In this document: piece by piece, positions 6,901 through 59,554 of the stretch | How the letters are laid out: the number at the start of each line of letters is the position of its first letter | Numbering within the stretch: position 1 is the first letter of the stretch | Assembly: GCA_964447315.1 (NCBI GenBank) | Contig: CAYURQ010000001.1 | Span: 27,351 to 91,350, forward strand | Source: Candidatus Woesearchaeota archaeon | Lineage (GTDB): Archaea; Nanobdellota; Nanobdellia; Pacearchaeales; GW2011-AR1 | Direction of reading: 5' to 3' | DNA length: 64,000 nt | Notes under the pieces: generated by a model | The model's input: the letters and a program-made list of their open reading frames with translations, nothing else | Databases searched by the model: none | Told to the model about the DNA's origin: nothing | Translations under genes and position numbers: made by a program

Positions 6901-7474
6901 TAAAGGCACTTTAATTTCAGGAATTAAAGGAGTAAAGCAAATATTAGTTGTAAAAAGAGATAGAGATTATGTTATTGTGACTCTTGGAACAAATTTAAAA
7001 GAAATTATTCAAATGAAAGAAGTTAATCCTAATAAGTTGATTTCAAATGATTTTTATGAAGTGGCAGATATTTTTGGTATTGAAGCTGCTCATTCTTTGA
7101 TTATCAAAGAAATTTTAGAAGTTCTTAAATCCCAGGGTATTGATATTGATATGAGACACTTAAAGCTTGTTGCAGATGCAATGACAAATACTGGAGAAGT
7201 TAAAGGAGTTACTAGAATGGGAATTATTGCACAAAAATCTTCAATCCTTGCAAGAGCAACATTTGAAACACCTGTTAAACAATTTGTTAATGCATCAATT
7301 AAAGGAAATAAAGATGAATTATCAAGTGTTATTGAAAATATAATTCTTAATCAACCAGTTCCAGTTGGAACAGGATTACCAGGACTTTTAGTTAAGGTAA
7401 CAGGGCCTTTAGTTAAAGATGAAAAAAACAAGAAAAAAGCTGATTCCAAGATTGTAGATATTGTTAATAATTAA
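3983..7474 (+). CDS. rpoA: DNA-directed RNA polymerase largest subunit, A' and A'' parts fused in one ORF (Rpo1)
   Basis: One uninterrupted 1163-aa ORF. It contains the N-terminal zinc motifs, the catalytic 'NADYDGDEMN' (A' part) and the trigger-loop block 'GEAIGIVTAQSFGESSTQMVLNTFHMAGV' (A'' part). It starts 1 nt after the rpoB stop. Confidence 0.95.
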   Translation: MNKPIRKRIKSLNFSLLSPEQVKKLSSAKIVTPELYDIDGYPVDGGLMDLRLGAVDPGVRCRTCGGRIKECLGHPGSIDMARAVIHLKYIPLIEMCLRCFCQDCGKLMLSEKDMEKYSASQRAKKAKDSKKCPHCQASQEKMKLDKPTSFYKGKTRIFPTEIREMLVNIPNEELEKVGVNCKTSRPEWAVITSLLVPPVTVRPSIILETGERSEDDLTHKLSDIIRANQRLWENLNAGAPEVIIEDLWDLLQFHVTTFFDNTVTRIPPARHRSGQPLKTITERIKGKEGRIRKNIAGKRVNYSGRTVISPDPFIGINEVGVPYEIAKVVTVAETVNDLNIKKLKKLIQKGSEYPGSSYVIRPDGKRKKVTEELKEEIISELAPGYKVERHLQEGDVVLFNRHPSLHRGSLMAHFVRVLPGRTFRMHPSAAAPYNADYDGDEMNIHSPQNEEARAEAKILLDVKKNLMSPKNNTNLVGSIKDSNTGNYLLGLDEFTSDEANQLFYYSGIDAYASKKHITGFELFSEIFPKSVNFKNDSITIKDGVVEKGVIDKTTFGDEDGDLVKVLDNTLGRDETFKILKNAFDLGKNHITNRGITISVNDLDLRKDVIEMGEEIIKKSEKKTQDLINSYNDGTLEIIPGKTLEESRELKIVQTLNEVRTKIGEIVRREYPKTNPVNHMIRSGGGGNILNVTQMASCVGQQAFMGGRINIGYNGRTLSLFKPGDLSPEAHGFIKSSFIKGLRPDEFFFQAVTGRDSLMDTGLRTPKSGYLYRRLANALQDLRVEYDGTIRDSNNNIIEFLFGDDGIDVSKMHTKGKLDSGEAIGIVTAQSFGESSTQMVLNTFHMAGVAEMQVTSGLPRLIEIFDARKTPSSPKMEIFLNKEYNDEKNARIFAEKIKEITLKEIASEINLDFGNKKIEIVIDKQGLRQTHSSVKTIVDRLKDLHFKAKDKGDLIQLDAGDMNFREIYKLKEKLKGTLISGIKGVKQILVVKRDRDYVIVTLGTNLKEIIQMKEVNPNKLISNDFYEVADIFGIEAAHSLIIKEILEVLKSQGIDIDMRHLKLVADAMTNTGEVKGVTRMGIIAQKSSILARATFETPVKQFVNASIKGNKDELSSVIENIILNQPVPVGTGLPGLLVKVTGPLVKDEKNKKKADSKIVDIVNN

Positions 7475-22973: not shown

Positions 22974-25832
22974 CTAAACTTTCAAACTCACAATCTTGCT
23001 AACTCCGTCATGCATACTTACTCCAAATAAATTAGTTGCATTAGTAATTATTTCATCGTTGTGAGTTATAACAAGATATTGTCCTTTTCTCATGAATTTT
23101 TGAAGAAGTCCTGCAAGTCTGCCTGAATTACGCTTGTCTAATGCAGCATCTATCTCATCAAGTATGTAAAAGCAGTAAGGATTTAATTCCTGGATTGCAA
23201 ATATCAGTGAAAGTGCAACCATTGTTTGTTCACCCCCACTTAAAGATGTAACGTCAAAATATTTACCATGCCCTGTTTTAACTACAATTCCAACTCCTCC
23301 ATCAAATGGATCTTTTTTATTTTCTAGTTCTAAAAATACTTGTCCTTTTTCTGAAATAGAAGCAAAATTTCTAGAAAATATTGTATTAAGTTCCTCAAAA
23401 GTTTTCATGAAGGATTTTTTCTTTTTAATATCAATCTCATGAATAATTCTTAAGATGCTATTTTTTTCTTTTTCAATAATCTCTACACGACTTTGAACTG
23501 CTTGGTATTCTTTTTTAATTTCATCGTAAACTTCTAAAGAACGCATATTAACATTACCCATATTATTTAGAGTTGCTTGAGTTTTATTGAATCTTTCTTG
23601 AAGAACCTCTCTGGATTGTTTTATTATTTCAACATTTGGAAATTCCAACAATTCTGTTTCAAAATTTTCAATCTCAGCACTAAAACGTGCTTTTTCAACT
23701 TTAAAATTATTTATCTCTTGTTCAATGTTATAAATTATATTTTTCTTGATTGAAAATTGTTGTTCGTTTTCACGTATTTTTTGATTGCAGAAATCTTTAT
23801 CTTTTAACATGGTATGGTGTTTCCTTGTTAATTCTTCGTCTTGTTTTCTTTTTTCATTTAATTTTCTTTGTTTTTCATTAAAAGATTCTTTTAATTTTTC
23901 TAATTCTTCTGTTATATCTTGAACTTCACGGGCATTTTGTTTTATTGATATTTTTGCACGTTCAAGTTCTCTTTGTTTAAAGGATATTTCTGAATTGATA
24001 TTTTCTGTTGTACGCATTGAAATTTCTTGCATTTCAATTGAAAATTTATCATATTTTTCTTCAACTCCTGAATAATTTTCAAAATCTTTTTCAAGCTTTT
24101 GTTTAATCTTTTCTAGTCCTTGTAATTCTCCTTGTGCAAGATTAATTTTTTCTTGAAGAGCTTTAATCTGTGATTTTTTTTCATTAATACTTGATATTTT
24201 ATTTAAATCATTTTCACGTTTTGATATTTCTTGAGATATTTTTTCAATTTCTTGTTTAAGCATATCTCTATTTGTTTGAATTGTAGTTAAATCTGAGTCA
24301 GAAATAGAAATCTTATCTTCAAGTTTTTTCACTTCTGAATTCACTTCTGAATGAATTGTACTTATATGGTCTTTTGTTATTTTACTTTTACATAAAGGAC
24401 AAATATCCATTTTAGATATTTTTTCAATCATCTTTCTTTGCTTTTCAATTTCTGCTTCATTTGCAAATGAAATTTTATCTAATTCACGTTCTTTTAATAT
24501 TAAATCTTCAAAAAATTCTTTTTTTTGTGCTAATTCAATTCTTAAATTATCAAGAATTTCAATAGAAGTTTTTTTATCAAATAAATCATTAACTGCAGAA
24601 TCAATTTGCTTTATTAAAAAATCTGATTCATTTTTATAATTTTGTAAAATAGATCTTTTATCATCGAACCTTTCACGTATTGATTTTAATTCAGAACGTG
24701 TTGTATAAAATTTCTTTCTTTGTTCTTCTAATTCATCTAATTTTTGTTTTTTTGTTTTAAGCTCTTTTTCTTTTTTAGCAAGGCTTGGAGATTCTTTTTG
24801 AAGTGTTTTTAATTCTAACTCGTTATCACGAATTGAATTTTCTAATTCAACTTTTGATTTTTTCAAGGAATTTAACTTTGTTTCATTATTTTCAATTCTT
24901 ACTTTAAGGCCTTCTAAATCTGCCCTAAGTGTTGCAATTTCTGAATTAAGTTTTTCTTGTTCTAATCCTGTTGATTCTGTTATCTTTGAATCTATTGTTT
25001 TTACTTTTTCTTCAAGATTTTTAATAACTGCTTGGATATTTACAATTGTTTTTTTAACTTTTTCAATTTCTTTGTTTTTCTTTTCAATATTATCATCAAT
25101 TGAAGAAGCGTGTTTTTGTTTTTTATTTAAATCATGAGTTAATATGCTGGCTTTAAATTTTTTAATATCTTCCTGATATTTTTTATAACGTAGAGCTTGT
25201 TCTCTTTCTTTTTCAAGATTATTTAAGTAAGATGTTCTTTCACGAAGTATGGATAATACATCTTTTAACTTGTTTTCAGTCCTGTTTAATTCTTTTAGTG
25301 ATTTTTCTTTCCTAGATTCATAGATTGAGATTCCAGATACTTCTTCAATAATTTTACGTCTTTCTTCAGTATGCATTCTTACAAAGTTTTGAATTTCACC
25401 TTGCAAGATTATATTGAATCCATTTGGATCAATTCCTGCTTGGGCAAGTAAACCAAGTATTTCTTGTCTTGTTTTTGTTTGATTATTTATTTTGTATATG
25501 CTTTGTCCGTTTCTACGTACAATACGTTTAATTGATATTTCTTTATCATTTATTGAAAAAGCATTGTCTGAATTATCAAAAATCATTTCAACTGATGCTT
25601 CTTTTGCAGGTGAAGCAGCTTTTGTTCCCATGAAAATAAGATTTTTGGCTTTTGCAGCACGCATTGATTTAACACTTAATCTACCTAAAACAAAGCATAA
25701 TGCATCTGAAACATTACTCTTACCAGAACCATTAGGACCTAAAATTACATTAATTCCTGAAGTAAATGGAATTTCTGTTTTTCTAGGGAAACTTTTGAAA
25801 CCATGCATCACCAGTTTTTTAATATAAGCCAT
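22974..25832 (-). CDS. SMC-family ATPase with zinc-hook-like CxxC in place of a hinge (952 aa)
   Basis: SMC-type N-terminal head 'GFKSF...GPNGSGKSN..DA.CFVLG'. C-terminal head 'LSGGEQTMVALSLIFAIQ...FYILDEIDAALD'. The middle is continuous coiled coil with 'CPLC' at residues 478-481 of 952 (nt 24390-24401) and no globular hinge. Confidence 0.85.
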   Translation of the reverse strand: MAYIKKLVMHGFKSFPRKTEIPFTSGINVILGPNGSGKSNVSDALCFVLGRLSVKSMRAAKAKNLIFMGTKAASPAKEASVEMIFDNSDNAFSINDKEISIKRIVRRNGQSIYKINNQTKTRQEILGLLAQAGIDPNGFNIILQGEIQNFVRMHTEERRKIIEEVSGISIYESRKEKSLKELNRTENKLKDVLSILRERTSYLNNLEKEREQALRYKKYQEDIKKFKASILTHDLNKKQKHASSIDDNIEKKNKEIEKVKKTIVNIQAVIKNLEEKVKTIDSKITESTGLEQEKLNSEIATLRADLEGLKVRIENNETKLNSLKKSKVELENSIRDNELELKTLQKESPSLAKKEKELKTKKQKLDELEEQRKKFYTTRSELKSIRERFDDKRSILQNYKNESDFLIKQIDSAVNDLFDKKTSIEILDNLRIELAQKKEFFEDLILKERELDKISFANEAEIEKQRKMIEKISKMDICPLCKSKITKDHISTIHSEVNSEVKKLEDKISISDSDLTTIQTNRDMLKQEIEKISQEISKRENDLNKISSINEKKSQIKALQEKINLAQGELQGLEKIKQKLEKDFENYSGVEEKYDKFSIEMQEISMRTTENINSEISFKQRELERAKISIKQNAREVQDITEELEKLKESFNEKQRKLNEKRKQDEELTRKHHTMLKDKDFCNQKIRENEQQFSIKKNIIYNIEQEINNFKVEKARFSAEIENFETELLEFPNVEIIKQSREVLQERFNKTQATLNNMGNVNMRSLEVYDEIKKEYQAVQSRVEIIEKEKNSILRIIHEIDIKKKKSFMKTFEELNTIFSRNFASISEKGQVFLELENKKDPFDGGVGIVVKTGHGKYFDVTSLSGGEQTMVALSLIFAIQELNPYCFYILDEIDAALDKRNSGRLAGLLQKFMRKGQYLVITHNDEIITNATNLFGVSMHDGVSKIVSLKV

Positions 25833-25881: not shown

Positions 25882-26550
25882 TTACAACCTTCTTTGAGCT
25901 AATTTTTCAAATGCTTTTTTCCAGGTTTCCCAGGTTTTTCTAAATATTCCTGCATTTTGCTGTTTTTCTGCATTTTTTTCAAGATACATTATTGTTAAAG
26001 GGTCTGAAGTGTATCCTGAGCCAATTTCTTTTCCATATTTTTCACGTATTTTATCCATTTCTTTTTCACGCACACATTTTGCGAGAATTGAAGCAGCAGA
26101 TACAGCAATATGGTTTTTATCTGCTTTGTGCTCGCAGATTAATTCAATTGTACTCATATCTTTAACTAAACTTCTTACAACATCTTTCCACTTTTCTATA
26201 CTAACAGAAGGGCAATCAATAACAATTTTTATTTTTTTATAACCTTTATTTATTTTATTAATTATATCTGAAGTCATTTTAGCTTCTAATTTATTAAGAT
26301 TTTTTCCATTCTTTAATGCATTGTCAATTTCAAGAGGATTTGCAAGAACTATTTCAAAGGTTTCTGCTTTTTCTTTTATTATTTTAGAAAAGTGTTCACG
26401 TCTTTTATTTGTTAGTTGTTTTGAATCTTTAATTCCTATTCTACGAAACTCTTTTTCAGTTTCTTTTGTTACTAAACATCCTGCAAGAACCATTGGGCCT
26501 ATAACTGGACCACGACCAGCATCATCAATTCCTAAAATAAATTCTGTCAT
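25882..26550 (-). CDS. rnhB: ribonuclease HII
   Basis: 'GIDDAGRGPVIGPMVLAG', 'DSKQL' and 'KADK.H..VSAASILAK' are RNase HII motifs. Confidence 0.92.
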   Translation of the reverse strand: MTEFILGIDDAGRGPVIGPMVLAGCLVTKETEKEFRRIGIKDSKQLTNKRREHFSKIIKEKAETFEIVLANPLEIDNALKNGKNLNKLEAKMTSDIINKINKGYKKIKIVIDCPSVSIEKWKDVVRSLVKDMSTIELICEHKADKNHIAVSAASILAKCVREKEMDKIREKYGKEIGSGYTSDPLTIMYLEKNAEKQQNAGIFRKTWETWKKAFEKLAQRRL

Positions 26551-31535: not shown

Positions 31536-31832
31536 TTATTCTTCATCTTCCTCAAGAACTAGTAAACTAAGTAAAACAATTAATACTCCTGCTATTATAG
31601 AAATTACCCAGCTTAGCCAACCTAACTCTAGAGTCTTAAACTTAATTATTAAAAAACCTGCAATACCAAGCAATCCTATGAATATATAATCTTTTCGTAT
31701 TTTTTCTTTGATAATTGGGGCGTGTTCTGAAAATACATCAAGAATTCCAGTAACAATTACAACAACCAATAATATATTTAAGTTAAGATAAGTGCTAACA
31801 AGTCCTGCCCATATTTGTTCAATCAATAACAA
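31536..31832 (-). CDS. small membrane protein, 'LGW' family copy 1 (98 aa; TTG start as tracked)
   Basis: Three hydrophobic segments and an acidic tail. Paralogues at 33542, 36225, 38237 and the C-terminal half of 44150..44632. Confidence 0.55.
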   Translation of the reverse strand: MLLIEQIWAGLVSTYLNLNILLVVVIVTGILDVFSEHAPIIKEKIRKDYIFIGLLGIAGFLIIKFKTLELGWLSWVISIIAGVLIVLLSLLVLEEDEE

Positions 31833-31903
31833 TATTAGATAAGTTACTAAGACTGTTTGAAAGATGTGATTTACTAGGGATGCGTTGTGTCTGTGGAAAA
31901 GGG

Positions 31904-31917
31904 AAAAGTTTATAGAA
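31904..31917 (+). promoter_or_regulatory. BRE/TATA-like promoter of 31938 (leaderless geometry)
   Basis: 'aaaagtttatagaa' centred 26 nt before ATG 31938. Duplicate at 36599-36612. Confidence 0.5.
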
Positions 31918-31937
31918 TTTTAAATTATTATTAAAAC

Positions 31938-32324
31938 ATGGAAGAAAGAGATGTAATAATTAAGATTTATGATAAAAAAGAAGAAATTAATAAAATAATT
32001 AAAGAATTAAAAAAATATTCATTTGAAGATTACATTAAAACTGGCCATTATGAAATTTCTTTATTAACTAAAGGAACAGATGAAGATAAATTGAGAGAGA
32101 TTTATCCTAAATTTGATATTATAGAATTAATAGCATTGAGGAGGCATAAAAATGGTTATGAGAATTATGATGTTTATTATGAACTTGAAAAAGGAAATTA
32201 TGCTTTGTTTGCCATAAATCTAGAAGGTAAAAAACCTAAAATAGATAATGCATTTATAGCTAATAGAATATTCAAAAATTTCTTAAAATCTATGGTAAAA
32301 AGATATGGTAATAAAATGGTTTAA
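31938..32324 (+). CDS. hypothetical protein (128 aa), possibly toxin-like
   Basis: No firm motif, only a loose resemblance to small RNase-fold toxins. Convergent with the DUF2283-like gene, overlapping it by 4 nt. Confidence 0.4.
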   Translation: MEERDVIIKIYDKKEEINKIIKELKKYSFEDYIKTGHYEISLLTKGTDEDKLREIYPKFDIIELIALRRHKNGYENYDVYYELEKGNYALFAINLEGKKPKIDNAFIANRIFKNFLKSMVKRYGNKMV

Positions 32325-32656
32325 TTAGTCATGCATTGCATAGGTATATTTGCTATAGGAATTTGTTTTATTCCTGCTTTTTCATCTTCTAATCCCACCC
32401 CAATAAATAATTGATCTCTGCTTGGTTTTACAATAAGATTTAATTTTTCAAAGTCTTTTATTTGTTGTATATTAAACCCTATTGCCTCAAGAAAATTAGA
32501 AAACTCTCTTACTTCTAAACTAACTACTTTTCCGTTTCCAGTAGTGCTAATAATAAAATCTCCAAAGCTAAAATTCTTCTTAACTTTCTCATTATCTTGA
32601 ATAGAAGCCACAATTAAGCTGTCTGTATTCTCATCATATTTAGAGACTTTTATCAT
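32321..32656 (-). CDS. DUF2283-like small protein
   Basis: N-terminal 'MIKVSKYDENTDSLIVAS' fits the DUF2283 'YD.e.D.lyi' pattern. Confidence 0.45.
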   Translation of the reverse strand: MIKVSKYDENTDSLIVASIQDNEKVKKNFSFGDFIISTTGNGKVVSLEVREFSNFLEAIGFNIQQIKDFEKLNLIVKPSRDQLFIGVGLEDEKAGIKQIPIANIPMQCMTN

Positions 32657-32756
32657 ATTTTATAATAATATTTTGTTTATTTATACCTTTCTATTCATCT
32701 TCTAGAGGCAAGTAAAACATATAAATCTTAATAAATAATTAAAACTCCTTTTCTTA

Positions 32757-33545
32757 ATGGGAATTGATTCATCTGAAGCAAATCAAATAATAAACGCTAT
32801 TGATTTTGTAAATCATCATTATGGAGGTTCTGCAAAAGTTACTGGAGAATTCTTTTGTAAAGACTGTAATGAGAAATTTCCTTCTGGAGAATTTCGTTAT
32901 GATAAAGGAGGGTATATTCCAGGGCCAGGTTTAATTAATTTGTCTTCTGAAAGGGCTGCATTTCCCCTTCATGAGTTTCATACTGTTCTTGCTTTAAAAG
33001 ATTCTGATGAGATCTATGAAAAAAGAGTGATTTTAGACTTATTTAATAAATCAAGAAACTGGAATTTTTATGATGTTCCAGAAAGATGCTTTGAGGATTA
33101 TATGAAAATAATGAAAACAAGCTCACTAATTTCTATTGCTAGTCTAGAAGCTAATCATTGGTGTTATTCACTTCATTCAACACCAGATTTTACAGAAGAA
33201 GAAATGCTGGAGGATCCTATTAAAAGGGATATTCTAGAAATGGATAGGAAGATTAATCTTAGGCCAAATAAATTAGAAAATGAGGTTAAACCAGAAATAA
33301 ATCGGGTTTTCAAAGACATAATTGGTAATAGAGAAATTCCAATAATTTATATTATTCCAGAAGAATTTAGAGGAGATTTTGGAGAGGAATATTATAAAAG
33401 GGATTTTATTGAAGCAACATACAATACTTTTAAAGCAAAGAACATACTTTTTCCAGATGAAAAAAGAAATTCTGTTATTAAAATAATTGATTCTTACTTT
33501 AAAGAAGCAGAATTAAAGCATGAAAGACACCCTTCTCCTTTTTAG
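32757..33545 (+). CDS. hypothetical protein (262 aa)
   Basis: Intact ORF with a single 'CKDC' pair and no recognisable domain. Confidence 0.45.
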   Translation: MGIDSSEANQIINAIDFVNHHYGGSAKVTGEFFCKDCNEKFPSGEFRYDKGGYIPGPGLINLSSERAAFPLHEFHTVLALKDSDEIYEKRVILDLFNKSRNWNFYDVPERCFEDYMKIMKTSSLISIASLEANHWCYSLHSTPDFTEEEMLEDPIKRDILEMDRKINLRPNKLENEVKPEINRVFKDIIGNREIPIIYIIPEEFRGDFGEEYYKRDFIEATYNTFKAKNILFPDEKRNSVIKIIDSYFKEAELKHERHPSPF

Positions 33546-33844
33546 GATTCTTCATCCTCTTCTAAAACAAGTAAACTAAGTAAAACAATTAATACTCCTG
33601 CAACAAGAGATATTACCCATGACAACCATCCTAATTCTAGTGTTTTAAACTTGATTATCAGGAAACCTGCAATACCAAGCAATCCTATAAATATGTAATC
33701 TTTAGGTTTTATTTTTTCTTTAATAATTGGAGCGTGTTCTGAAAATACATCAAGAATTCCAGTAACAATTACAACAACTAATAAGATATTTAAGTTAAGA
33801 TAAGTGCTAACAAGTCCTGCCCATATTTGCTCAATTAATAACAA
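33542..33844 (-). CDS. small membrane protein, 'LGW' family copy 2 (100 aa)
   Basis: About 90% identical by eye to 31536..31832. Confidence 0.55.
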   Translation of the reverse strand: MLLIEQIWAGLVSTYLNLNILLVVVIVTGILDVFSEHAPIIKEKIKPKDYIFIGLLGIAGFLIIKFKTLELGWLSWVISLVAGVLIVLLSLLVLEEDEES

Positions 33845-33913
33845 TATTAGATAAGTTACTAAGACTGTTTGAAAGGTGTGATTTACTAGGGATGTGTTGT
33901 GTCCACGGAATAG

Positions 33914-33952
33914 GAGGTGTTGGAGTGAGGGTTTGGGAATGTTGATAGGATT
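33914..33952 (+). repeat. G-rich element, subfamily 2
   Basis: 'gaggtgttggagtgagggtttgggaatgttgataggatt' aligns with 58345-58389 and 59480-59524. Confidence 0.5.
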
Positions 33953-33960
33953 ATTTTAAT

Positions 33961-34602
33961 TTATATAGAAGAATTAATATCTCCATGCACTACTAATGAT
34001 TGATAATTTTCAAATAAGAAAGGGGCATAAAATTGGGCTTCTGGAAAATCTTTAGTTGTACTTAGATACCAAATATTCTCTTCCATTTTATCTTTAGCTC
34101 TTTCAACTGACTTTTCTATAGTAGAACCTTCTATTAATGCTTTAACAAGGATATTTGAGGGTTCTAAAAATAATTTTGCTATTTTATCTCTTCTTGGAGA
34201 TGCCTCCTGATTAGGATCTTTCCCAAGATTAAAATCTCTCTCATATCCAATAAAACAAATGGCTCCTTTAGTAACTATTATCTTCCCTAGTTTTTGTCCT
34301 GATGAACAAGTTAGGGAATAAACAACCATGCCTGAAAGAACTTTTGCATTTTCTTTAGAGATTATTATCTCATTTTTATGCCCAGCAATCAAATCAGGAT
34401 TACCATGCCCATTAAACATAATAAAATCTGGTTTTTGCTTTTTTATAATTTTTAAGATTTCTTTTTTATTTGCTTTTTCTCTTTCCCTATTTATTGTTTT
34501 GTTTCCTCTTTCTTTCGAATATTTAACTAATTCTTTACTATAATAATATAAATAAGAGAGGGTCCCATCATGCTCGGGTCTGGAAAAAATAATATTACTC
34601 AT
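33961..34602 (-). CDS. minimal CHAT/caspase-like (clan CD) cysteine peptidase candidate (213 aa)
   Basis: Strand+His-Gly 'DFIMFNGHG' (His66) and strand+Cys 'VVYSLTCSSG' (Cys99), followed by 'KGAICFIGY', in the order and spacing typical of caspase-fold enzymes. Confidence 0.4.
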   Translation of the reverse strand: MSNIIFSRPEHDGTLSYLYYYSKELVKYSKERGNKTINREREKANKKEILKIIKKQKPDFIMFNGHGNPDLIAGHKNEIIISKENAKVLSGMVVYSLTCSSGQKLGKIIVTKGAICFIGYERDFNLGKDPNQEASPRRDKIAKLFLEPSNILVKALIEGSTIEKSVERAKDKMEENIWYLSTTKDFPEAQFYAPFLFENYQSLVVHGDINSSI

Positions 34603-34604
34603 AA

Positions 34605-34841
34605 TTATTGTTTTACTAAAAAACCTCTTTTGAAAGCTTTAAGATAGTTTAATTGGATTTCAACTATTCTATTTCCAATATCTGTATTATCTTCTATGTT
34701 TTTTATCAACTCATCTCTTTTCATAAATTTTCCATCAGACATTCCAAATGAAACACTTACATTTGGGGAAGCCTGCCTAATTCTTTCTATGACTATTTCT
34801 TTCTTTAACTGATCTATATTCTCTTGTTTATTTTCTTTCAT
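34605..34841 (-). CDS. hypothetical protein (78 aa), middle gene of the operon
   Basis: 2-nt gap to the downstream gene and a 4-nt overlap with the upstream gene. Confidence 0.45.
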   Translation of the reverse strand: MKENKQENIDQLKKEIVIERIRQASPNVSVSFGMSDGKFMKRDELIKNIEDNTDIGNRIVEIQLNYLKAFKRGFLVKQ

Positions 34842-35020
34842 ATTATTTCTAACTCTTTTAGTATTTTTAATATTTTCTCTCCATTTTCTGTCTTATTCTT
34901 TATTTCTTGGTAAGCAAGATTCCAACTTATTGGATTTTTATCTATAATTACTATTGTATTGTTTCTTTCTTTTATAGGCACTCCAGAATAAACTTTAAAG
35001 AAATCTTCTTCATTTACCAT
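34838..35020 (-). CDS. hypothetical protein (60 aa), first gene of the operon
   Basis: Intact ORF coupled to the next gene. Confidence 0.4.
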   Translation of the reverse strand: MVNEEDFFKVYSGVPIKERNNTIVIIDKNPISWNLAYQEIKNKTENGEKILKILKELEII

Positions 35021-35054
35021 TATTAAATTAGTAAATTAATCTTTTTAATTTTTG

Positions 35055-35165
35055 TCATTTCTTTTTCCTCGGCTTATTCCAATAAGGACTTTGGGGTTTC
35101 ATGAAACACTGAAGAGAAAAGGATATTTAAATGCTGTTTTTTGGAGTGTGGGTAAAACAATTCAT
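35055..35165 (-). pseudogene. decayed copy of the small zinc-ribbon gene (compare 46276..46413)
   Basis: It reads 'MNCFTHTPKNSI*ISFSLQCFMKPQSPYWNKPRKKK*'. The tail matches '...CPKCKSPYWNKPKKK' of the intact gene. It has an in-frame TAA and has lost Cys ligands. Confidence 0.55.
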
Positions 35166-35203
35166 CTTAATCTATATATTTTTTAATTAATGATTCTATA
35201 ATT

Positions 35204-35464
35204 TTAATTATACACTTTATCTCTTTTATCAATTTTTACTATCAAAATTATTTTCTGAGCTTCTTTAATTTTATATAATGCTCTAAAGTACCCAATTCTA
35301 TACCTAAAAACCATCTCATTATTATCTCTCCCAATAAACTTTGAATCACTTGGTACAGGAGTATTTTCAAGGTTTTTTAATCTCTTTTCAATCCTTTCTC
35401 TTTCTTTGGTATCTAATTTGTTTAAAAAATCCTGGGCTTTAACAGACAGCTCTACAGAATACAT
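35204..35464 (-). CDS. relE: RelE-family toxin (archaeal type)
   Basis: '...FRYRIGYFRALYKI.....I.IVKI.KRDKVY' is the archaeal RelE pattern. Confidence 0.7.
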   Translation of the reverse strand: MYSVELSVKAQDFLNKLDTKERERIEKRLKNLENTPVPSDSKFIGRDNNEMVFRYRIGYFRALYKIKEAQKIILIVKIDKRDKVYN

Positions 35465-35465
35465 T

Positions 35466-35627
35466 TTACAGTCTCTTTGTTCTGCCTTCTTTTAAATCTT
35501 CTTCAGCTTGATTTAAAGAGTTTATGTCGTCTTGGGTTAGAGTTACATCTATTATGTGCTCCTTTAAAGAATCCATATCTTTTTTTAAATTGTCTAGTTT
35601 ACTTATGATTAATTCTTCGTTTTCCAT
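35466..35627 (-). CDS. relB: RelB-like antitoxin (53 aa, absent from the ORF track)
   Basis: My translation is 'MENEELIISKLDNLKKDMDSLKEHIIDVTLTQDDINSLNQAEEDLKEGRTKRL'. Its stop is 1 nt before the relE ATG. Confidence 0.6.
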   Translation of the reverse strand: MENEELIISKLDNLKKDMDSLKEHIIDVTLTQDDINSLNQAEEDLKEGRTKRL

Positions 35628-35665
35628 ATCTTCCAATATAAAAATAACTATATAATCTTTTCGTA

Positions 35666-35715
35666 TTTTTTATTTTTCATAAGGGGTGTTGGTTGGAGCA
35701 TTTTAGGGAGTATTG
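35666..35715 (+). repeat. G-rich element, subfamily 1 (3'-end remnant of a paralogue of gene 46504)
   Basis: In frame it reads '...FVFFIFHKGCWLEHFREYCKLKKKK*', versus '...FFIFHRGCWLEHFREYYQLNKKK*' in the intact gene. There is no start codon upstream. Confidence 0.6.
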
Positions 35716-35781
35716 TAAATTAAAAAAAAAGAAATAATTAGCAGAACAATCAAAAAAAATTAGAAAAGATATGGAAAGAAT

Positions 35782-36189
35782 CTACAAAATTTCTTTTAAA
35801 TAATTAGATAAATTTAAATCCCTAATTTCTTGTTTTCTTAACCATTTATAATCTTCATGTTCTTTACTTAACTTAACATTCTCTGGTTTTTCATGAGTTT
35901 TTAATATATATATTATTCTTAAAAGATGAACTTTTTTCCCTTGTTTCTCATATTCTTTACTTAATATTCTATAGATTGAAACTATTTCTGTATCGAGACT
36001 TGTTTCTTCCTTAACTTCTCTAAGTACAGCTTCAGAAGGATCTTCTCCAAATTCAACTCTTCCTCCAGGAATTTCCCATTCTCGAGAACCATCTACTTCT
36101 TTTGAATTTCTTTTAAGAAAAAGAAACTTATCTTGTATCTGAATCAATCCATTTGCTAAAATATTTGTTTTTTTCTTAATTTCTGACAT
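35782..36189 (-). CDS. Nudix hydrolase
   Basis: Nudix box 'GGRVEFGEDPSEAVLREVKEETSL'. It lies in the 543-bp unique spacer between the two 4.15-kb repeat copies. Confidence 0.85.
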   Translation of the reverse strand: MSEIKKKTNILANGLIQIQDKFLFLKRNSKEVDGSREWEIPGGRVEFGEDPSEAVLREVKEETSLDTEIVSIYRILSKEYEKQGKKVHLLRIIYILKTHEKPENVKLSKEHEDYKWLRKQEIRDLNLSNYLKEIL

Positions 36190-36224
36190 GTTTTAATAAA
36201 AGAATACATTTTATTTAAGGTTTT

Positions 36225-36527
36225 CTAATCTTGTTGTTCACCTTCTTCTAAAACAAGCAAACTAAGTAAAACAATTAATACTCCTGCTATTATAGAAATT
36301 ACCCAGCTTAGCCAACCTAACTCTAGAGTCTTAAACTTAATTATTAAAAAACCTGCAATACCAAGCAATCCTATGAATATATAATCTTTTCGTATTTTTT
36401 CTTTGATAATTGGGGCGTGTTCTGAAAATACATCAAGAATTCCAGTAACAATTACAACAACCAATAATATATTTAAGTTAAGATAAGTGCTAACAAGTCC
36501 TGCCCATATTTGTTCAATCAATAACAA
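36225..36527 (-). CDS. small membrane protein, 'LGW' family copy 3 (100 aa)
   Basis: Same as 31536..31832 except for the C-terminal tail ('LEEGEQQD' versus 'LEEDEE'). The repeat boundary falls in its 3' end. Confidence 0.55.
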   Translation of the reverse strand: MLLIEQIWAGLVSTYLNLNILLVVVIVTGILDVFSEHAPIIKEKIRKDYIFIGLLGIAGFLIIKFKTLELGWLSWVISIIAGVLIVLLSLLVLEEGEQQD

Positions 36528-36632
36528 TATTAGATAAGTTACTAAGACTGTTTGAAAGATGTGATTTACTAGGGATGCGTTGTGTCTGTGGAAAAGGGAA
36601 AAGTTTATAGAATTTTAAATTATTATTAAAAC

Positions 36633-37019
36633 ATGGAAGAAAGAGATGTAATAATTAAGATTTATGATAAAAAAGAAGAAATTAATAAAATAATTAAAGA
36701 ATTAAAAAAATATTCATTTGAAGATTACATTAAAACTGGCCATTATGAAATTTCTTTATTAACTAAAGGAACAGATGAAGATAAATTGAGAGAGATTTAT
36801 CCTAAATTTGATATTATAGAATTAATAGCATTGAGGAGGCATAAAAATGGTTATGAGAATTATGATGTTTATTATGAACTTGAAAAAGGAAATTATGCTT
36901 TGTTTGCCATAAATCTAGAAGGTAAAAAACCTAAAATAGATAATGCATTTATAGCTAATAGAATATTCAAAAATTTCTTAAAATCTATGGTAAAAAGATA
37001 TGGTAATAAAATGGTTTAA
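36633..37019 (+). CDS. hypothetical protein (128 aa), duplicate of 31938..32324
   Basis: Identical translation. Confidence 0.4.
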   Translation: MEERDVIIKIYDKKEEINKIIKELKKYSFEDYIKTGHYEISLLTKGTDEDKLREIYPKFDIIELIALRRHKNGYENYDVYYELEKGNYALFAINLEGKKPKIDNAFIANRIFKNFLKSMVKRYGNKMV

Positions 37020-37351
37020 TTAGTCATGCATTGCATAGGTATATTTGCTATAGGAATTTGTTTTATTCCTGCTTTTTCATCTTCTAATCCCACCCCAATA
37101 AATAATTGATCTCTGCTTGGTTTTACAATAAGATTTAATTTTTCAAAGTCTTTTATTTGTTGTATATTAAACCCTATTGCCTCAAGAAAATTAGAAAACT
37201 CTCTTACTTCTAAACTAACTACTTTTCCGTTTCCAGTAGTGCTAATAATAAAATCTCCAAAGCTAAAATTCTTCTTAACTTTCTCATTATCTTGAATAGA
37301 AGCCACAATTAAGCTGTCTGTATTCTCATCATATTTAGAGACTTTTATCAT
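37016..37351 (-). CDS. DUF2283-like small protein, duplicate of 32321..32656
   Basis: Identical translation. Confidence 0.45.
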   Translation of the reverse strand: MIKVSKYDENTDSLIVASIQDNEKVKKNFSFGDFIISTTGNGKVVSLEVREFSNFLEAIGFNIQQIKDFEKLNLIVKPSRDQLFIGVGLEDEKAGIKQIPIANIPMQCMTN

Positions 37352-37451
37352 ATTTTATAATAATATTTTGTTTATTTATACCTTTCTATTCATCTTCTAG
37401 AGGCAAGTAAAACATATAAATCTTAATAAATAATTAAAACTCCTTTTCTTA

Positions 37452-38240
37452 ATGGGAATTGATTCATCTGAAGCAAATCAAATAATAAACGCTATTGATT
37501 TTGTAAATCATCATTATGGAGGTTCTGCAAAAGTTACTGGAGAATTCTTTTGTAAAGACTGTAATGAGAAATTTCCTTCTGGAGAATTTCGTTATGATAA
37601 AGGAGGGTATATTCCAGGGCCAGGTTTAATTAATTTGTCTTCTGAAAGGGCTGCATTTCCCCTTCATGAGTTTCATACTGTTCTTGCTTTAAAAGATTCT
37701 GATGAGATCTATGAAAAAAGAGTGATTTTAGACTTATTTAATAAATCAAGAAACTGGAATTTTTATGATGTTCCAGAAAGATGCTTTGAGGATTATATGA
37801 AAATAATGAAAACAAGCTCACTAATTTCTATTGCTAGTCTAGAAGCTAATCATTGGTGTTATTCACTTCATTCAACACCAGATTTTACAGAAGAAGAAAT
37901 GCTGGAGGATCCTATTAAAAGGGATATTCTAGAAATGGATAGGAAGATTAATCTTAGGCCAAATAAATTAGAAAATGAGGTTAAACCAGAAATAAATCGG
38001 GTTTTCAAAGACATAATTGGTAATAGAGAAATTCCAATAATTTATATTATTCCAGAAGAATTTAGAGGAGATTTTGGAGAGGAATATTATAAAAGGGATT
38101 TTATTGAAGCAACATACAATACTTTTAAAGCAAAGAACATACTTTTTCCAGATGAAAAAAGAAATTCTGTTATTAAAATAATTGATTCTTACTTTAAAGA
38201 AGCAGAATTAAAGCATGAAAGACACCCTTCTCCTTTTTAG
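37452..38240 (+). CDS. hypothetical protein (262 aa), duplicate of 32757..33545
   Basis: Identical translation. Confidence 0.45.
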   Translation: MGIDSSEANQIINAIDFVNHHYGGSAKVTGEFFCKDCNEKFPSGEFRYDKGGYIPGPGLINLSSERAAFPLHEFHTVLALKDSDEIYEKRVILDLFNKSRNWNFYDVPERCFEDYMKIMKTSSLISIASLEANHWCYSLHSTPDFTEEEMLEDPIKRDILEMDRKINLRPNKLENEVKPEINRVFKDIIGNREIPIIYIIPEEFRGDFGEEYYKRDFIEATYNTFKAKNILFPDEKRNSVIKIIDSYFKEAELKHERHPSPF

Positions 38241-38539
38241 GATTCTTCATCCTCTTCTAAAACAAGTAAACTAAGTAAAACAATTAATACTCCTGCAACA
38301 AGAGATATTACCCATGACAACCATCCTAATTCTAGTGTTTTAAACTTGATTATCAGGAAACCTGCAATACCAAGCAATCCTATAAATATGTAATCTTTAG
38401 GTTTTATTTTTTCTTTAATAATTGGAGCGTGTTCTGAAAATACATCAAGAATTCCAGTAACAATTACAACAACTAATAAGATATTTAAGTTAAGATAAGT
38501 GCTAACAAGTCCTGCCCATATTTGCTCAATTAATAACAA
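38237..38539 (-). CDS. small membrane protein, 'LGW' family copy 4
   Basis: Translation identical to 33542..33844. Confidence 0.55.
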   Translation of the reverse strand: MLLIEQIWAGLVSTYLNLNILLVVVIVTGILDVFSEHAPIIKEKIKPKDYIFIGLLGIAGFLIIKFKTLELGWLSWVISLVAGVLIVLLSLLVLEEDEES

Positions 38540-38608
38540 TATTAGATAAGTTACTAAGACTGTTTGAAAGGTGTGATTTACTAGGGATGTGTTGTGTCCA
38601 CGGAATAG

Positions 38609-38647
38609 GAGGTGTTGGAGTGAGGGTTTGGGAATGTTGATAGGATT
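38609..38647 (+). repeat. G-rich element, subfamily 2 (duplicate of 33914..33952)
   Basis: Lies within repeat copy 2. Confidence 0.5.
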
Positions 38648-38655
38648 ATTTTAAT

Positions 38656-39297
38656 TTATATAGAAGAATTAATATCTCCATGCACTACTAATGATTGATA
38701 ATTTTCAAATAAGAAAGGGGCATAAAATTGGGCTTCTGGAAAATCTTTAGTTGTACTTAGATACCAAATATTCTCTTCCATTTTATCTTTAGCTCTTTCA
38801 ACTGACTTTTCTATAGTAGAACCTTCTATTAATGCTTTAACAAGGATATTTGAGGGTTCTAAAAATAATTTTGCTATTTTATCTCTTCTTGGAGATGCCT
38901 CCTGATTAGGATCTTTCCCAAGATTAAAATCTCTCTCATATCCAATAAAACAAATGGCTCCTTTAGTAACTATTATCTTCCCTAGTTTTTGTCCTGATGA
39001 ACAAGTTAGGGAATAAACAACCATGCCTGAAAGAACTTTTGCATTTTCTTTAGAGATTATTATCTCATTTTTATGCCCAGCAATCAAATCAGGATTACCA
39101 TGCCCATTAAACATAATAAAATCTGGTTTTTGCTTTTTTATAATTTTTAAGATTTCTTTTTTATTTGCTTTTTCTCTTTCCCTATTTATTGTTTTGTTTC
39201 CTCTTTCTTTCGAATATTTAACTAATTCTTTACTATAATAATATAAATAAGAGAGGGTCCCATCATGCTCGGGTCTGGAAAAAATAATATTACTCAT
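38656..39297 (-). CDS. minimal CHAT/caspase-like peptidase candidate, duplicate of 33961..34602
   Basis: Identical translation. Confidence 0.4.
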   Translation of the reverse strand: MSNIIFSRPEHDGTLSYLYYYSKELVKYSKERGNKTINREREKANKKEILKIIKKQKPDFIMFNGHGNPDLIAGHKNEIIISKENAKVLSGMVVYSLTCSSGQKLGKIIVTKGAICFIGYERDFNLGKDPNQEASPRRDKIAKLFLEPSNILVKALIEGSTIEKSVERAKDKMEENIWYLSTTKDFPEAQFYAPFLFENYQSLVVHGDINSSI

Positions 39298-57914: not shown

Positions 57915-57970
57915 GAATTTAATTCCATAAACAAAATTAGCTACACCAATATATACAGAAACTCTCTTTT

Positions 57971-58243
57971 TTATTTTAATAAAAAGAATCCGGCATTACA
58001 TAGGTATTTTGTTACTTTTCCATAATCTGGGTAGTATAAATCAAATATTTTTTCTTCTGGGTTGTTTGGAATGCTTAAATTATGTCTTTGGAAGAATAAA
58101 GGGTCTTTTTGCACTATTTCACTTGTTTCTTTTTTAATTATATAAGATAATGAAGGGGTTTTTTCATCAAATACTTGAAATCCTGCTTGTTTAAGTCTTT
58201 CATTAACTTTTTTCATATATTTTTCTTTTTCTTGTTGTTTCAT
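57971..58243 (-). CDS. truncated paralogue of 56064..56450 (90 aa; start moved to 'MKQQEKEKY')
   Basis: About 124 nt are identical to 56289-56412 at offset 1,796. The C-terminus diverges and ends early. The tracked N-terminal 25 aa read through the promoter. Confidence 0.4.
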   Translation of the reverse strand: MKQQEKEKYMKKVNERLKQAGFQVFDEKTPSLSYIIKKETSEIVQKDPLFFQRHNLSIPNNPEEKIFDLYYPDYGKVTKYLCNAGFFLLK

Positions 58244-58344
58244 GTAAATATATGCTTGATTTATGTATTTAAATGTTATGTTTTTGTTGTAATTTAGTAG
58301 TGACAAGTTTATCTCCATGTGGTTGGAATATTTTAAGAGAATTA

Positions 58345-58389
58345 GAGGTTGTTGGAGTTAATTGTGGGTTGGAATATGTTGATAGGATG
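58345..58389 (+). repeat. G-rich element, subfamily 2
   Basis: 'gaggttgttggagttaattgtgggttggaatatgttgataggatg'. The G-rich sequence continues to about 58410. Confidence 0.5.
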
Positions 58390-58427
58390 TTTTGGGATTG
58401 TTGGGGGTGTTTTATGTGGATTTATTT

Positions 58428-58468
58428 TACCCCTACAAAATAGGAAGATTTATAAATATGTGGGGGTA
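58428..58468 (+). promoter_or_regulatory. inverted repeat 'tacccctaca' ... 'tgtgggggta' bracketing the TATA box of Fic gene 1
   Basis: Arms at 58428-58437 and 58459-58468 (1 mismatch). The spacer contains 'aagatttataaata'. The same 10-mer inverted repeat brackets the promoter of Fic gene 2. Confidence 0.6.
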
Positions 58469-58477
58469 AATATATTT

Positions 58478-59428: not shown

Positions 59429-59479
59429 TTAATATTGATTTTTGTTATTATTTTATATTTACAAGATTATAGAGGATTA

Positions 59480-59524
59480 GGGTTGTTAGGGTTAATTTGG
59501 GGTTGGAATATGTTGAGAGGATGG
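59480..59524 (+). repeat. G-rich element, subfamily 2
   Basis: 'gggttgttagggttaatttggggttggaatatgttgagaggatgg'. Confidence 0.5.
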
Positions 59525-59554
59525 TACATTTTGTAATACAAATATTTATAAACC

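What the first reader, a model, noticed from the sequence alone, without database searches (positions are those of the whole stretch)
22974..25832. SMC-type heads joined by a coiled coil with a Rad50-style CxxC hook at the exact midpoint, and no hinge
The N-terminal head ('GFKSF...GPNGSGKSN..DALCFVLG') and the C-terminal head ('LGNVNMRSLEVYDE', 'LSGGEQTMVALSLIFAIQ', 'FYILDEIDAALD') look like bona fide SMC rather than Rad50.

The protein is only 952 aa, and its centre is uninterrupted heptad-like sequence. I see no glycine-rich globular hinge. Instead 'MDICPLCKSKIT' places Cys478 and Cys481 at the midpoint of the 952 residues (nt 24390-24401). This is the same position and form as the Rad50 zinc hook ('CPVC').

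An SMC that dimerises through a zinc hook would be a distinct architecture for the main chromosome-organising ATPase of a reduced archaeon. No scpA or scpB genes are adjacent; the neighbour is rnhB.
Basis: partly seen in the sequence, partly recalled or inferred. Interest (0 to 1): 0.6.

Follow-up and report, generated by a model that had tools for sequence, protein, structure and literature searches.

The report
Archaeal SMC with zinc hook replacing hinge
This gene encodes a genuine chromosome-organising SMC ATPase whose usual central "hinge" is replaced by the short zinc-hook motif typical of the repair protein Rad50; the same form is conserved across a large group of tiny DPANN archaea, and it is a natural counterpart of a chimera that was built in the laboratory and shown to work.

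Summary
ORF 22974-25832 (-) encodes 952 aa with SMC-type heads: SMC_prok_A scores 530 bits, Rad50 models at most 129, and the Pyrococcus Smc head gives 2e-107. There is no SMC_hinge domain, although a control protein scores 6e-35. CPLC (Cys478/Cys481, nt 24390-24401) lies at the midpoint.

The motif is more than a bare CxxC. A profile of 39 diverse homologous mid-regions finds the P. furiosus Rad50 zinc hook as its best match among solved structures (1L8D, 3e-8), sharing CPxC-x3-(I/L)T-x-EH. 29 of the 39 hit Pfam Rad50_zn_hook. AlphaFold places the motif in a 12-residue turn between two long helices (fragment pLDDT 90).

All 120 closest homologues, and cluster representatives down to about 38% identity, keep CPxC at the midpoint. 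They come from Pace-/Woesearchaeota/Nanoarchaeota. Arm lengths are almost invariant.

In a head-domain tree the hook proteins form one clade (93% bootstrap) nested inside hinge-bearing archaeal SMCs. No sequence has both hinge and hook. The hinge was therefore replaced.

Zinc-mediated dimerisation, the kleisin partner and whether this is the genome's only SMC remain inferred.

I found no description in the searched literature. The nearest are the engineered B. subtilis Smc(Zh) chimera and hook-less "hinge-less" bacterial SMCs. I rate it a new variant of a known kind.

The parts
22974..25832 (-). smc gene of the hook type: 952-aa protein plus stop codon
   Evidence: ORF listing. SMC_N 2.5e-50 spanning residues 3-945. 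TIGR02169 529.7 bits.
25335..25832 (-). N-terminal half of the ATPase head (residues 1-166), including Walker A GPNGSGKS at 25716-25739 and the Q-loop at 25392-25406
   Evidence: Motif coordinates. 60 of 166 positions are invariant in 118 homologues. Residues 1-259 align to the Pyrococcus Smc head 5xei.
24414..25334 (-). N-terminal arm helix (residues 167-473), with breaks at 344-354 and 416-423. The head-proximal neck 167-215 is highly conserved.
   Evidence: AlphaFold DSSP helices 167-343, 355-415 and 424-473. The neck has 16 of 49 positions invariant, against 2 of 47 in the distal arm.
24375..24413 (-). Hook turn (residues 474-486), holding CPLC (Cys478/Cys481) at nt 24390-24401
   Evidence: C478, P479, C481, K482, T486 and H489 are invariant. 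Profile match to the Rad50 hook 1L8D, 3.1e-8. Pfam Rad50_zn_hook hits 29 of 39 regions. The fragment model shows a loop between helices, pLDDT 88-90.
23355..24374 (-). C-terminal arm helix (residues 487-826), returning to the head, with breaks at 587-589, 605-612 and 729-764
   Evidence: AlphaFold DSSP. The distance from Cys2 to LSGGE is 382 residues in 126 of 155 homologues.
22977..23354 (-). C-terminal half of the ATPase head (residues 827-952): signature LSGGEQ at 23226-23243, Walker B FYILDE at 23154-23171, D-loop at 23136-23153, H-loop at 23058-23069
   Evidence: Motif coordinates. 63 of 126 positions are invariant. Matches the Pyrococcus SMC C-terminal head 3kta_B, 3.4e-34.
25882..26550 (-). 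rnhB (RNase HII), 49 nt upstream on the same strand. The adjacency is conserved; co-transcription with smc is possible but not tested.
   Evidence: Pfam RNase_HII 4.2e-44. rnhB lies directly upstream of the hook smc in L001-L004 and nearby in L012.

Best explanation
This is the chromosomal SMC of a DPANN archaeon in which the globular hinge, about 200 residues, has been replaced by a Rad50-type zinc hook. Each protomer folds back on itself. The N- and C-terminal halves form a normal SMC ABC-ATPase head, two helices of about 307 and 340 residues form the arm, and the CPLC turn sits at the tip. By analogy with Rad50, two protomers would each give two cysteines to one tetrahedrally bound Zn2+. 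That would make the constitutive tip-to-tip dimer that the hinge normally provides. ATP-driven head engagement, and probably a kleisin bound to the conserved neck, would do the rest as in Smc-ScpA(B). What is shown here: head identity, absence of a hinge, presence of a hook motif of the archaeal Rad50 type, its position at the apex, conservation across the clade, derivation from hinge-bearing SMCs, and tight constraint on arm length. What is inferred: zinc binding, dimerisation in trans, the kleisin partnership and the chromosome-organising role.
For: Heads. TIGR02169 SMC_prok_A scores 529.7 bits and TIGR02168 522, against Rad50 models at 129 or less and ASRP at 127.8. In the PDB, Pyrococcus Smc heads score 1.9e-107 to 8e-86 and the best Rad50 1.8e-15. 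Head identity to Woesearchaeota hinge SMCs is 52-56%. All ATPase motifs are present and invariant.

No hinge. The query gives no PF06470 hit, whereas the control P0150 gives 5.6e-35. An alignment shows the hinge block of P0150/P0154 (GIHGT...GGYR) swapped for the hook.

Hook. The mid-region profile A2 has the P. furiosus Rad50 hook as its best PDB hits (1L8D 3.1e-8, 6ZFF 6.3e-8), followed by the human RAD50 hook (5GOX 9.6e-4). The alignment reads CPlCkskiteeh against CPVCGRELTDEH. 29 of 39 diverse mid-regions hit Pfam Rad50_zn_hook, best 1.8e-7.

Structure. The full-length model has helix 424-473, a turn at 474-486 and helix 487-586, with no globular middle. The fragment model has pLDDT 89.6. 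1L8D and 5GOX rank 2-4 among its structural matches and no hinge structure appears.

Conservation. All 120 closest homologues have CP[LVI]C at the midpoint. Cluster representatives of 943-998 aa down to about 38% identity keep it. It is present in at least 13 of the 18 hook-type GTDB species loci, titled Ca. Woesearchaeota, Ca. Pacearchaeota, Nanoarchaeota or simply archaeon. No sequence has both hinge and hook.

Phylogeny. The hook clade has 186 of 200 bootstraps and is nested in hinge SMCs when rooted on bacterial SMCs.

Arm lengths. Walker A to Cys1 is 438 residues in 120 of 155 proteins and Cys2 to LSGGE is 382 in 126 of 155.

Feasibility. B. subtilis Smc carrying the P. furiosus Rad50 hook in place of its hinge supports normal growth (PMC5344682).

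Context. The gene lies in a core chromosomal region with rpoB/rpoA, S7, aEF-2, aEF-1alpha and a DnaG-like primase. The synteny is kept in relatives.
Against: No dimer model and no metal evidence could be obtained here, so zinc binding is by analogy only.

The isolated query region scores 23.7 bits on Pfam Rad50_zn_hook, just below the gathering score of 24.3, and 17.4 bits in the full protein.

The flanks of the hook profile are coiled coil. That inflates similarity: HMMER reports a bias of 12.4 bits, and unrelated coiled coils appear at E of about 0.1.

Foldseek E-values for the fragment are weak, 0.004-0.06.

No ScpA, ScpB or other kleisin was found in the window or in 10-kb flanks of related loci. 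Whether the genome also has a hinge SMC or a Rad50 could not be checked.

The tree is neighbour-joining on 343 head columns only.
Confidence: 0.78

Rival explanations
1. The architecture is as described (SMC heads plus zinc hook), but the protein no longer acts as a condensin-like, kleisin-closed loop extruder. In these reduced genomes it would have taken on a Rad50-like or other DNA-tethering or repair role, or it would work without a kleisin.
For: No kleisin gene was found nearby. In L012 the genes next to the hook smc encode LigD primase-polymerase and phosphoesterase modules, and rnhB is a conserved neighbour. About-800-aa relatives with neither hinge nor hook branch inside the same clade, which shows that the tip is evolutionarily labile.
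Against: The head and the head-proximal neck, which is the kleisin site in Smc-ScpA, are as conserved as in orthodox SMCs: the neck has 16 of 49 positions invariant. The gene sits where a hinge-type smc sits relative to a similar Ig-like surface-protein gene in L023. smc and scpA are often unlinked in archaea. The arm length is tightly constrained, as in functional Smc. No Mre11-like gene is adjacent.
Confidence: 0.13
2. It is a divergent Rad50 (or SbcC) orthologue, that is, the DNA double-strand-break repair ATPase, and not an SMC.
For: The CPxC hook lies at the apex and the overall length is Rad50-like, about 880-950 aa. The Rad50 model NF003034 aligns end to end at 129 bits.
Against: SMC models score four times higher, 530 against 129 bits, and the Rad50 cut-off is 700. 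In the PDB, SMC heads score 1e-107 and Rad50 1e-15. Head identity to hinge SMCs is 52-56% and the clade is nested among them. No Mre11 was found among the 40 window ORFs scanned.
Confidence: 0.03
3. It belongs to the archaea-specific SMC-related proteins (ASRP: ClsN/Sph), a family already known to carry a zinc hook.
For: ASRPs are archaeal, SMC-related and mostly have a zinc hook (PMC9389158). The ASRP model gives a hit at 127.8 bits.
Against: The score is far below the ASRP cut-off of 300 and far below the SMC models. The hinge-bearing control P0150 also scores 84.7 on ASRP, so this is superfamily background. The ASRP model is 593 positions long, against 952 aa here. The phylogeny puts the protein inside canonical SMC.
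Confidence: 0.03
4. The hinge-less gene is an assembly or annotation artefact, or a decaying pseudogene, and the CxxC is there by chance.
For: The sequence comes from a metagenome-type contig and nothing else supports this reading.
Against: The same 952-aa architecture appears in well over a hundred independent clusters and contigs from NCBI, JGI, ENA and Logan. The cysteines are invariant and the ATPase motifs are intact. The chance expectation is 3e-4.
Confidence: 0.01

Closest known systems
Canonical prokaryotic/archaeal SMC (Smc-ScpAB condensin; TIGR02169/TIGR02168; e.g. Pyrococcus Smc, Woesearchaeota SMC P0150)
   Same: The ABC head has all motifs. Head identity to DPANN hinge SMCs is 52-56%. 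The arm is of comparable length, and profile positions 1-464 of TIGR02169 align to residues 3-475. The neck is conserved, the chromosomal context is the same, and the protein is phylogenetically nested within this family.
   Different: The whole hinge domain (PF06470, about 200 aa) is absent and a 12-residue CPxC turn stands in its place. The protein therefore falls below the curated SMC cut-off, 529.7 against 729.4 bits.
Rad50 zinc hook (Pfam PF04423; P. furiosus Rad50 hook, PDB 1L8D/6ZFF)
   Same: The CPxC lies at the apex of an antiparallel coiled coil. The shared extended motif is CPxC-x3-(I/L)T-x-EH. The best profile hit among all PDB chain sequences is this hook.
   Different: The heads are not Rad50, and no Mre11 partner is seen in the window. 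The arms carry SMC-type breaks, not the Rad50 pattern.
Engineered B. subtilis Smc(Zh) chimera (Burmann et al. 2017, PMC5344682). See also hook/hinge interchange in Rad50 (Tatebe et al. 2020, PMC6969161).
   Same: The design is the same: SMC heads and arms with a P. furiosus-type Rad50 hook as the dimerisation module. The chimera supports normal growth and still depends on tuned arm length. The natural proteins also show near-invariant arm length.
   Different: The chimera is artificial and bacterial. The protein here is natural, archaeal and fixed across a whole clade. That study collected SMCs with hinge profiles, so it would not have retrieved these proteins.
Archaea-specific SMC-related proteins (ASRP: ClsN, Sph1/2; PMC9389158)
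   Same: They are archaeal SMC-superfamily ATPases with a zinc hook at the coiled-coil tip.
   Different: ASRPs are a separate and much shorter family, with a model of 593 positions. The query scores 127.8 against a cut-off of 300 and groups with canonical SMC.
"Hinge-less" SMC variants from ocean metagenomes (Sussfeld et al. 2025, PMC12153180)
   Same: They are SMC-type heads and arms without a hinge domain, reported as a natural clade.
   Different: They are bacterial (Actinomycetes-like) and explicitly lack the CXXC hook. The proteins here are DPANN archaeal and have it.

Membership tests
Canonical SMC (TIGR02169 SMC_prok_A / Smc-ScpAB) | SMC-type ABC-ATPase head with Walker A, Q-loop, signature, Walker B, D-loop and H-loop | tested here: met
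   Motifs located and invariant in 118 homologues. Pyrococcus Smc head 1.9e-107.
Canonical SMC (TIGR02169 SMC_prok_A / Smc-ScpAB) | Long antiparallel intramolecular coiled-coil arm, about 300 or more residues per strand | tested here: met
   AlphaFold helices 167-473 and 487-826 with paired breaks. TIGR02169 positions 1-464 align to residues 3-475. The antiparallel pairing itself is taken from the model's topology and was not measured.
Canonical SMC (TIGR02169 SMC_prok_A / Smc-ScpAB) | Central globular hinge dimerisation domain (Pfam PF06470) | tested here: not met
   No hit in the query. The control P0150 gives 5.6e-35. No globular middle in the models.
Canonical SMC (TIGR02169 SMC_prok_A / Smc-ScpAB) | Score at or above the curated equivalog cut-off | tested here: not met
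   529.7 bits against a cut-off of 729.4, matched in two stretches on either side of the hinge positions. P0150 scores 815.9.
Canonical SMC (TIGR02169 SMC_prok_A / Smc-ScpAB) | Phylogenetic placement of the heads within SMC | tested here: met
   NJ head tree rooted on bacterial SMCs: the clade is nested among hinge-bearing archaeal SMCs, with 93% bootstrap for the clade. Rad50 and ASRP sequences were not in the tree.
Canonical SMC (TIGR02169 SMC_prok_A / Smc-ScpAB) | Kleisin (ScpA) partner, with or without ScpB | tested here: inconclusive
   None found in 40 window ORFs or in the flanks of related loci. The rest of the genome could not be read, and smc and scpA are often unlinked in archaea.
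Rad50/SbcC | CxxC zinc hook at the coiled-coil apex | tested here: met
   Sequence-level evidence only. Profile against 1L8D 3.1e-8. PF04423 is hit by 29 of 39 regions; the query region scores 23.7 bits against a gathering score of 24.3. The position at the apex comes from the models. Zinc binding was not tested.
Rad50/SbcC | Rad50-type head reaching the family cut-off | tested here: not met
   Best Rad50 model NF003034 scores 129.3 against a cut-off of 700.
Rad50/SbcC | Mre11/SbcD nuclease partner, usually adjacent | tested here: not met
   No Mre11-type hit among the window ORFs scanned or in related loci. The rest of the genome was not examined.
ASRP (ClsN/Sph; NF045487) | Score at or above the curated cut-off, and family-typical length of about 600 aa | tested here: not met
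   127.8 bits against a cut-off of 300, and 952 aa. The hinge SMC control also scores 84.7.

The most novel reading that the evidence does not exclude
A whole branch of the DPANN archaea (Pace-/Woesearchaeota within Nanoarchaeota) runs its only chromosomal SMC on a hook taken from an archaeal Rad50. That would be a natural and ancient experiment showing that the hinge fold is dispensable for SMC function. The swap may have happened more than once: P0268 is a separate hook-bearing SMC that branches beside a hinge SMC. It may also have been followed by further reduction to proteins of about 800 aa with neither hinge nor hook.
Probability: 0.4. Interest if true: 0.8.

Novelty: new variant of a known kind. 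Interest (0 to 1): 0.66.

Why it matters
The role of the SMC hinge is a long-running question. It may be only a dimerisation module, or it may also be a DNA-binding site or entry gate. The only direct evidence that its fold is dispensable comes from engineered chimeras in B. subtilis and yeast.

A large natural lineage whose orthologous SMC carries a Rad50-type hook gives an evolutionary test of that conclusion. The arm length in this lineage is held almost to the residue.

It also provides a ready-made minimal SMC for structural and single-molecule work.

It is a practical warning too. Surveys that collect SMCs with hinge profiles, or with equivalog cut-offs, will miss or under-annotate these proteins. 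NCBI names them only "SMC family protein".

Tried and rejected
1. I tried to reach the rest of the contig or genome to look for ScpA, ScpB, Rad50, Mre11 or a second SMC. Exact-product look-ups of four window proteins found nothing on record: RpoB, RpoA, the 137-aa ORF at 63514-63927, and the SMC itself as P0001. The Fic protein at 61944-62804 returned only a 1.4-kb contig. The question stays open.

2. Motif and phmmer searches used bacterial ScpA and ScpB taken from loci L028-L032, against all ORFs of the window and the DPANN loci. They found only the bacterial proteins themselves. This search has low sensitivity and is not evidence of absence.

3. A fold search of the full-length model returned only generic SMC, Smc5/6, condensin and MukB matches with very large rmsd. 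It says nothing about the tip.

4. A fold search of the hook fragment ranked the Rad50 hooks 2nd to 4th, behind a Lamassu LmuB chain (9ux7_A). E-values were only 0.004-0.06, which is usual for helical hairpins. I treat this as consistent with the hook reading, not as proof.

5. The Rad50, ASRP and artefact readings were considered and rejected on scores, phylogeny and conservation.

6. A first bootstrap run with Biopython timed out. It was redone with a numpy neighbour-joining routine.

7. Literature searches combined zinc hook with DPANN or Nanoarchaeota, Smc-ScpAB with zinc hook and archaea, and hinge-less with SMC. None found a description of this architecture. The library does not hold most subscription-journal papers.
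Full report
WHAT IS THERE

The ORF at 22974-25832 on the minus strand encodes 952 aa. Walker A is residues 32-39, the Q-loop 143-147, the signature LSGGEQ 864-869, Walker B 888-893, the D-loop 894-899 and the H-loop 922-925. CPLC is residues 478-481, nt 24390-24401. The protein has only five cysteines. A CxxC within five residues of the midpoint is expected 3e-4 times by chance.

The window is a core archaeal chromosomal region of about 26-32% G+C. It carries rpoB, rpoA, ribosomal protein S7, aEF-2, aEF-1alpha and a DnaG-like Toprim protein. RNase HII lies 49 nt upstream on the same strand.

HEADS

NCBIfam gives SMC_prok_A 529.7 bits and SMC_prok_B 522. The best Rad50 model scores 129.3 and ASRP 127.8.

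Against all PDB chain sequences, the Pyrococcus Smc head constructs score 1.9e-107 to 8e-86, and eukaryotic SMC1-4 about 1e-57 to 1e-25. The best Rad50 scores 1.8e-15.

Over 343 head columns the protein is 52-56% identical to hinge-bearing SMCs of Ca. Woesearchaeota and 35-39% identical to bacterial SMCs. The heads are SMC and not Rad50.

NO HINGE

Pfam finds SMC_N spanning residues 3-945 and no SMC_hinge. The same scan gives SMC_hinge 5.6e-35 for the 1142-aa Woesearchaeota SMC P0150, and 1e-23 to 1e-34 for four shorter hinge SMCs.

SMC_prok_A matches in two stretches, the first covering profile positions 1-464. That explains the score below the 729.4 cut-off. P0150 matches in one stretch at 815.9 bits.

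A local alignment shows the hinge block of P0150, P0154, P0160 and P0172 (GIHGT...GGYR) replaced by the short hook segment.

THE MIDPOINT MOTIF IS A RAD50-TYPE HOOK

In the full protein, Pfam Rad50_zn_hook aligns to residues 460-508 over profile positions 3-52 of 52. The score is sub-threshold: 17.4 bits, E = 0.0038.

I built a profile of 39 mutually diverse 100-residue mid-regions (A2). Its best matches among all PDB chain sequences are the P. furiosus Rad50 zinc hook (1L8D 3.1e-8, 6ZFF 6.3e-8), followed by the human RAD50 hook (5GOX 9.6e-4). The next unrelated hit, a RING finger, scores about 0.01. The aligned cores are CPlCkskiteeh and CPVCGRELTDEH.

29 of the 39 regions hit PF04423 on their own at E <= 0.01. 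The best is 1.8e-7, and the query region scores 23.7 bits against a gathering score of 24.3.

Within the close family, C478, P479, C481, K482, T486, H489 and I493 are invariant. They form an island of conservation: 7 of 25 positions, between distal arm segments with 2 of 47 and 1 of 91 invariant positions. T486 and H489 correspond to the T and H of the Pyrococcus hook.

One caveat applies. The flanks are coiled coil, which inflates profile scores. HMMER reports a bias of 12.4 bits, so common ancestry of so short a motif is likely but not proven.

STRUCTURE PREDICTION

The full-length AlphaFold2 model was built from 118 sequences and has mean pLDDT 76. It shows helices 167-343, 355-415 and 424-473, then a turn at 474-486 carrying both cysteines, then helices 487-586, 590-604, 613-728, 741-758 and 765-826. 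There is no globular domain in the middle.

A model of residues 395-565 has pLDDT 89.6: helix, a 12-residue turn with two beta bridges, helix. Its Foldseek matches in the PDB put the Rad50 hooks 1L8D and 5GOX at ranks 2-4, behind a Lamassu LmuB chain. No SMC hinge appears. The E-values are weak, 0.004-0.06.

Only monomers could be modelled. The zinc-bridged dimer is therefore an inference from Rad50.

DISTRIBUTION AND EVOLUTION

- Close homologues. The 120 closest proteins in the 5.8-billion-protein collection are 63-100% identical. 87 are exactly 952 aa and all have CP[LVI]C at the midpoint. Where named, they are called "chromosome segregation SMC family protein" from Ca. Pacearchaeota, Nanoarchaeota or Diapherotrites MAGs.
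- Cluster representatives. Among 50%-identity representatives, full-length proteins of 943-998 aa with CPxC at relative position 0.49-0.50 extend down to about 38% identity. Hinge-size proteins of 1100-1200 aa begin at 37% identity.
- GTDB genomes. A scan of GTDB species representatives found 31 related loci. Of the 19 archaeal ones, L005-L022 are of the hook type, and L023 is a hinge SMC with an intein. CPxC was confirmed in the 13 hook-type loci I translated. The records are titled Ca. Woesearchaeota, Ca. Pacearchaeota, Nanoarchaeota or simply archaeon.
- Mutual exclusion. With a local hinge HMM, 100 sequences were hinge-type and 49 hook-type. None had both.
- Head tree. In a neighbour-joining tree of head columns rooted on bacterial SMCs, all hook proteins except one, together with four short relatives, form a clade with 186 of 200 bootstraps. 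Its sister is a group of 39 hinge SMCs that includes the Woesearchaeota ones, and every successive outgroup is hinge-bearing. The hook is therefore derived: a hinge was replaced.
- Synteny. rnhB lies directly upstream of the hook smc in four contigs of a 67%-identical relative, which also share DnaG, EF-1alpha and EF-2 downstream. rnhB is nearby in a 49%-identical Woesearchaeota locus. A similar Ig-like surface-protein gene follows smc both there and in the hinge-type locus L023.

ARM LENGTH

Across 155 hook proteins, the distance from Walker A to the first cysteine is 438 residues in 120 of them (range 433-453). The distance from the second cysteine to LSGGE is 382 in 126 of them (usual range 381-399). 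The arm sequence itself is the least conserved part of the protein.

This fits the finding that Smc function depends on discrete arm lengths, and that this dependence persists in the hook chimera (PMC5344682).

MECHANISM

The best-supported reading is an SMC homodimer joined at the tip by a shared Zn(Cys)4 site instead of a hinge. Heads and neck would work as in Smc-ScpA.

The head-proximal neck is as conserved as the head: 16 of 49 positions invariant on the N strand and 11 of 62 on the C strand. That is what a retained kleisin site would look like, but no kleisin gene was found within reach.

The lack of adjacency is not informative. smc and scpA are separated in several archaeal orders and scpB is undetectable in most archaeal genomes (PMC7055376).

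COMPARISON WITH WHAT IS KNOWN

The protein works like, and descends from, canonical SMC. It fails two formal membership criteria, the hinge domain and the equivalog cut-off, for the same reason. It is not a Rad50 and not an ASRP.

The closest precedent is artificial. B. subtilis Smc with the P. furiosus Rad50 hook supports normal growth, and hook and hinge are interchangeable in Rad50 (PMC6969161).

Natural hinge-less SMCs have been reported from ocean metagenomes, but they are bacterial and explicitly lack CXXC (PMC12153180). A survey of archaeal SMCs filed DPANN proteins under "canonical aSMC" without mentioning a hook (PMC8665677).

No paper in the searchable library combines zinc hook with DPANN, and none retrieved for these lineages described a hook-bearing SMC.

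VERDICT

It extends from one gene to a clade-wide, derived architecture. I rate it a new variant of a known kind.

Interest is moderately high because it bears directly on what the SMC hinge is for. It is limited by the missing dimer and zinc evidence, and by the unanswered questions of partners and paralogues.

Noticed in passing
Proteins P0141, P0142, P0144, P0148 (779-804 aa; Ca. Pacearchaeota), related to window 22974-25832: These are SMC-head proteins (SMC_prok_A about 505 bits) with neither a hinge domain nor any CxxC. Their middle looks helical. In the head tree they branch inside or beside the hook clade, as if the hook had been lost again and the arms shortened. How they dimerise is unknown.
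   Followed up: partly
Protein P0268 (998 aa, 'AAA family ATPase [archaeon]'): This is a second SMC with a hook: SMC_prok_A 543 bits and CPVC at residue 489 of 998. In the head tree it sits apart from the main hook clade, next to the hinge SMC P0267. It may be an independent hinge-to-hook replacement.
   Followed up: partly
Homologues P0084, P0087, P0122, P0129 (about 1475 aa) and hinge-type P0163, P0164, P0166, P0174, P0179-P0181, L023: Many DPANN SMC genes carry an intein of about 520 aa (Pfam LAGLIDADG_3 plus Intein_splicing) inserted in or just after Walker A. The match to the query resumes at residue 36-38.
   Followed up: no
window 31536-39297: There is a tandem duplication of about 4.7 kb. 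Four ORFs (31938-32324, 32321-32656, 32757-33545, 33961-34602) recur 4695 bp downstream. A 300-nt repeat is 97% identical between the copies, and a 63% copy lies inside each unit. None of the three first-copy ORFs that were scanned (31938-32324, 32757-33545, 33961-34602) has a Pfam hit. This could be a real duplication or an assembly artefact.
   Followed up: partly
window 3983-7474 (+): RNA polymerase subunit A is a single 1163-aa ORF that covers Rpb1 domains 1-5. Most archaea have split A' and A'' genes.
   Followed up: no
window 56640-62804: This is a cluster of defence or toxin-like genes: an AAA_14/DUF4143 ATPase, two Fic/DOC proteins (58349-59428, 61944-62804) and a HEPN plus nucleotidyltransferase pair (59858-60409, 60397-60981).
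   Followed up: no
L012 8446-9890 (-), next to a hook-type smc: In one Woesearchaeota genome, stand-alone LigD primase-polymerase and LigD 3'-phosphoesterase genes lie between rnhB and the hook smc.
   Followed up: no
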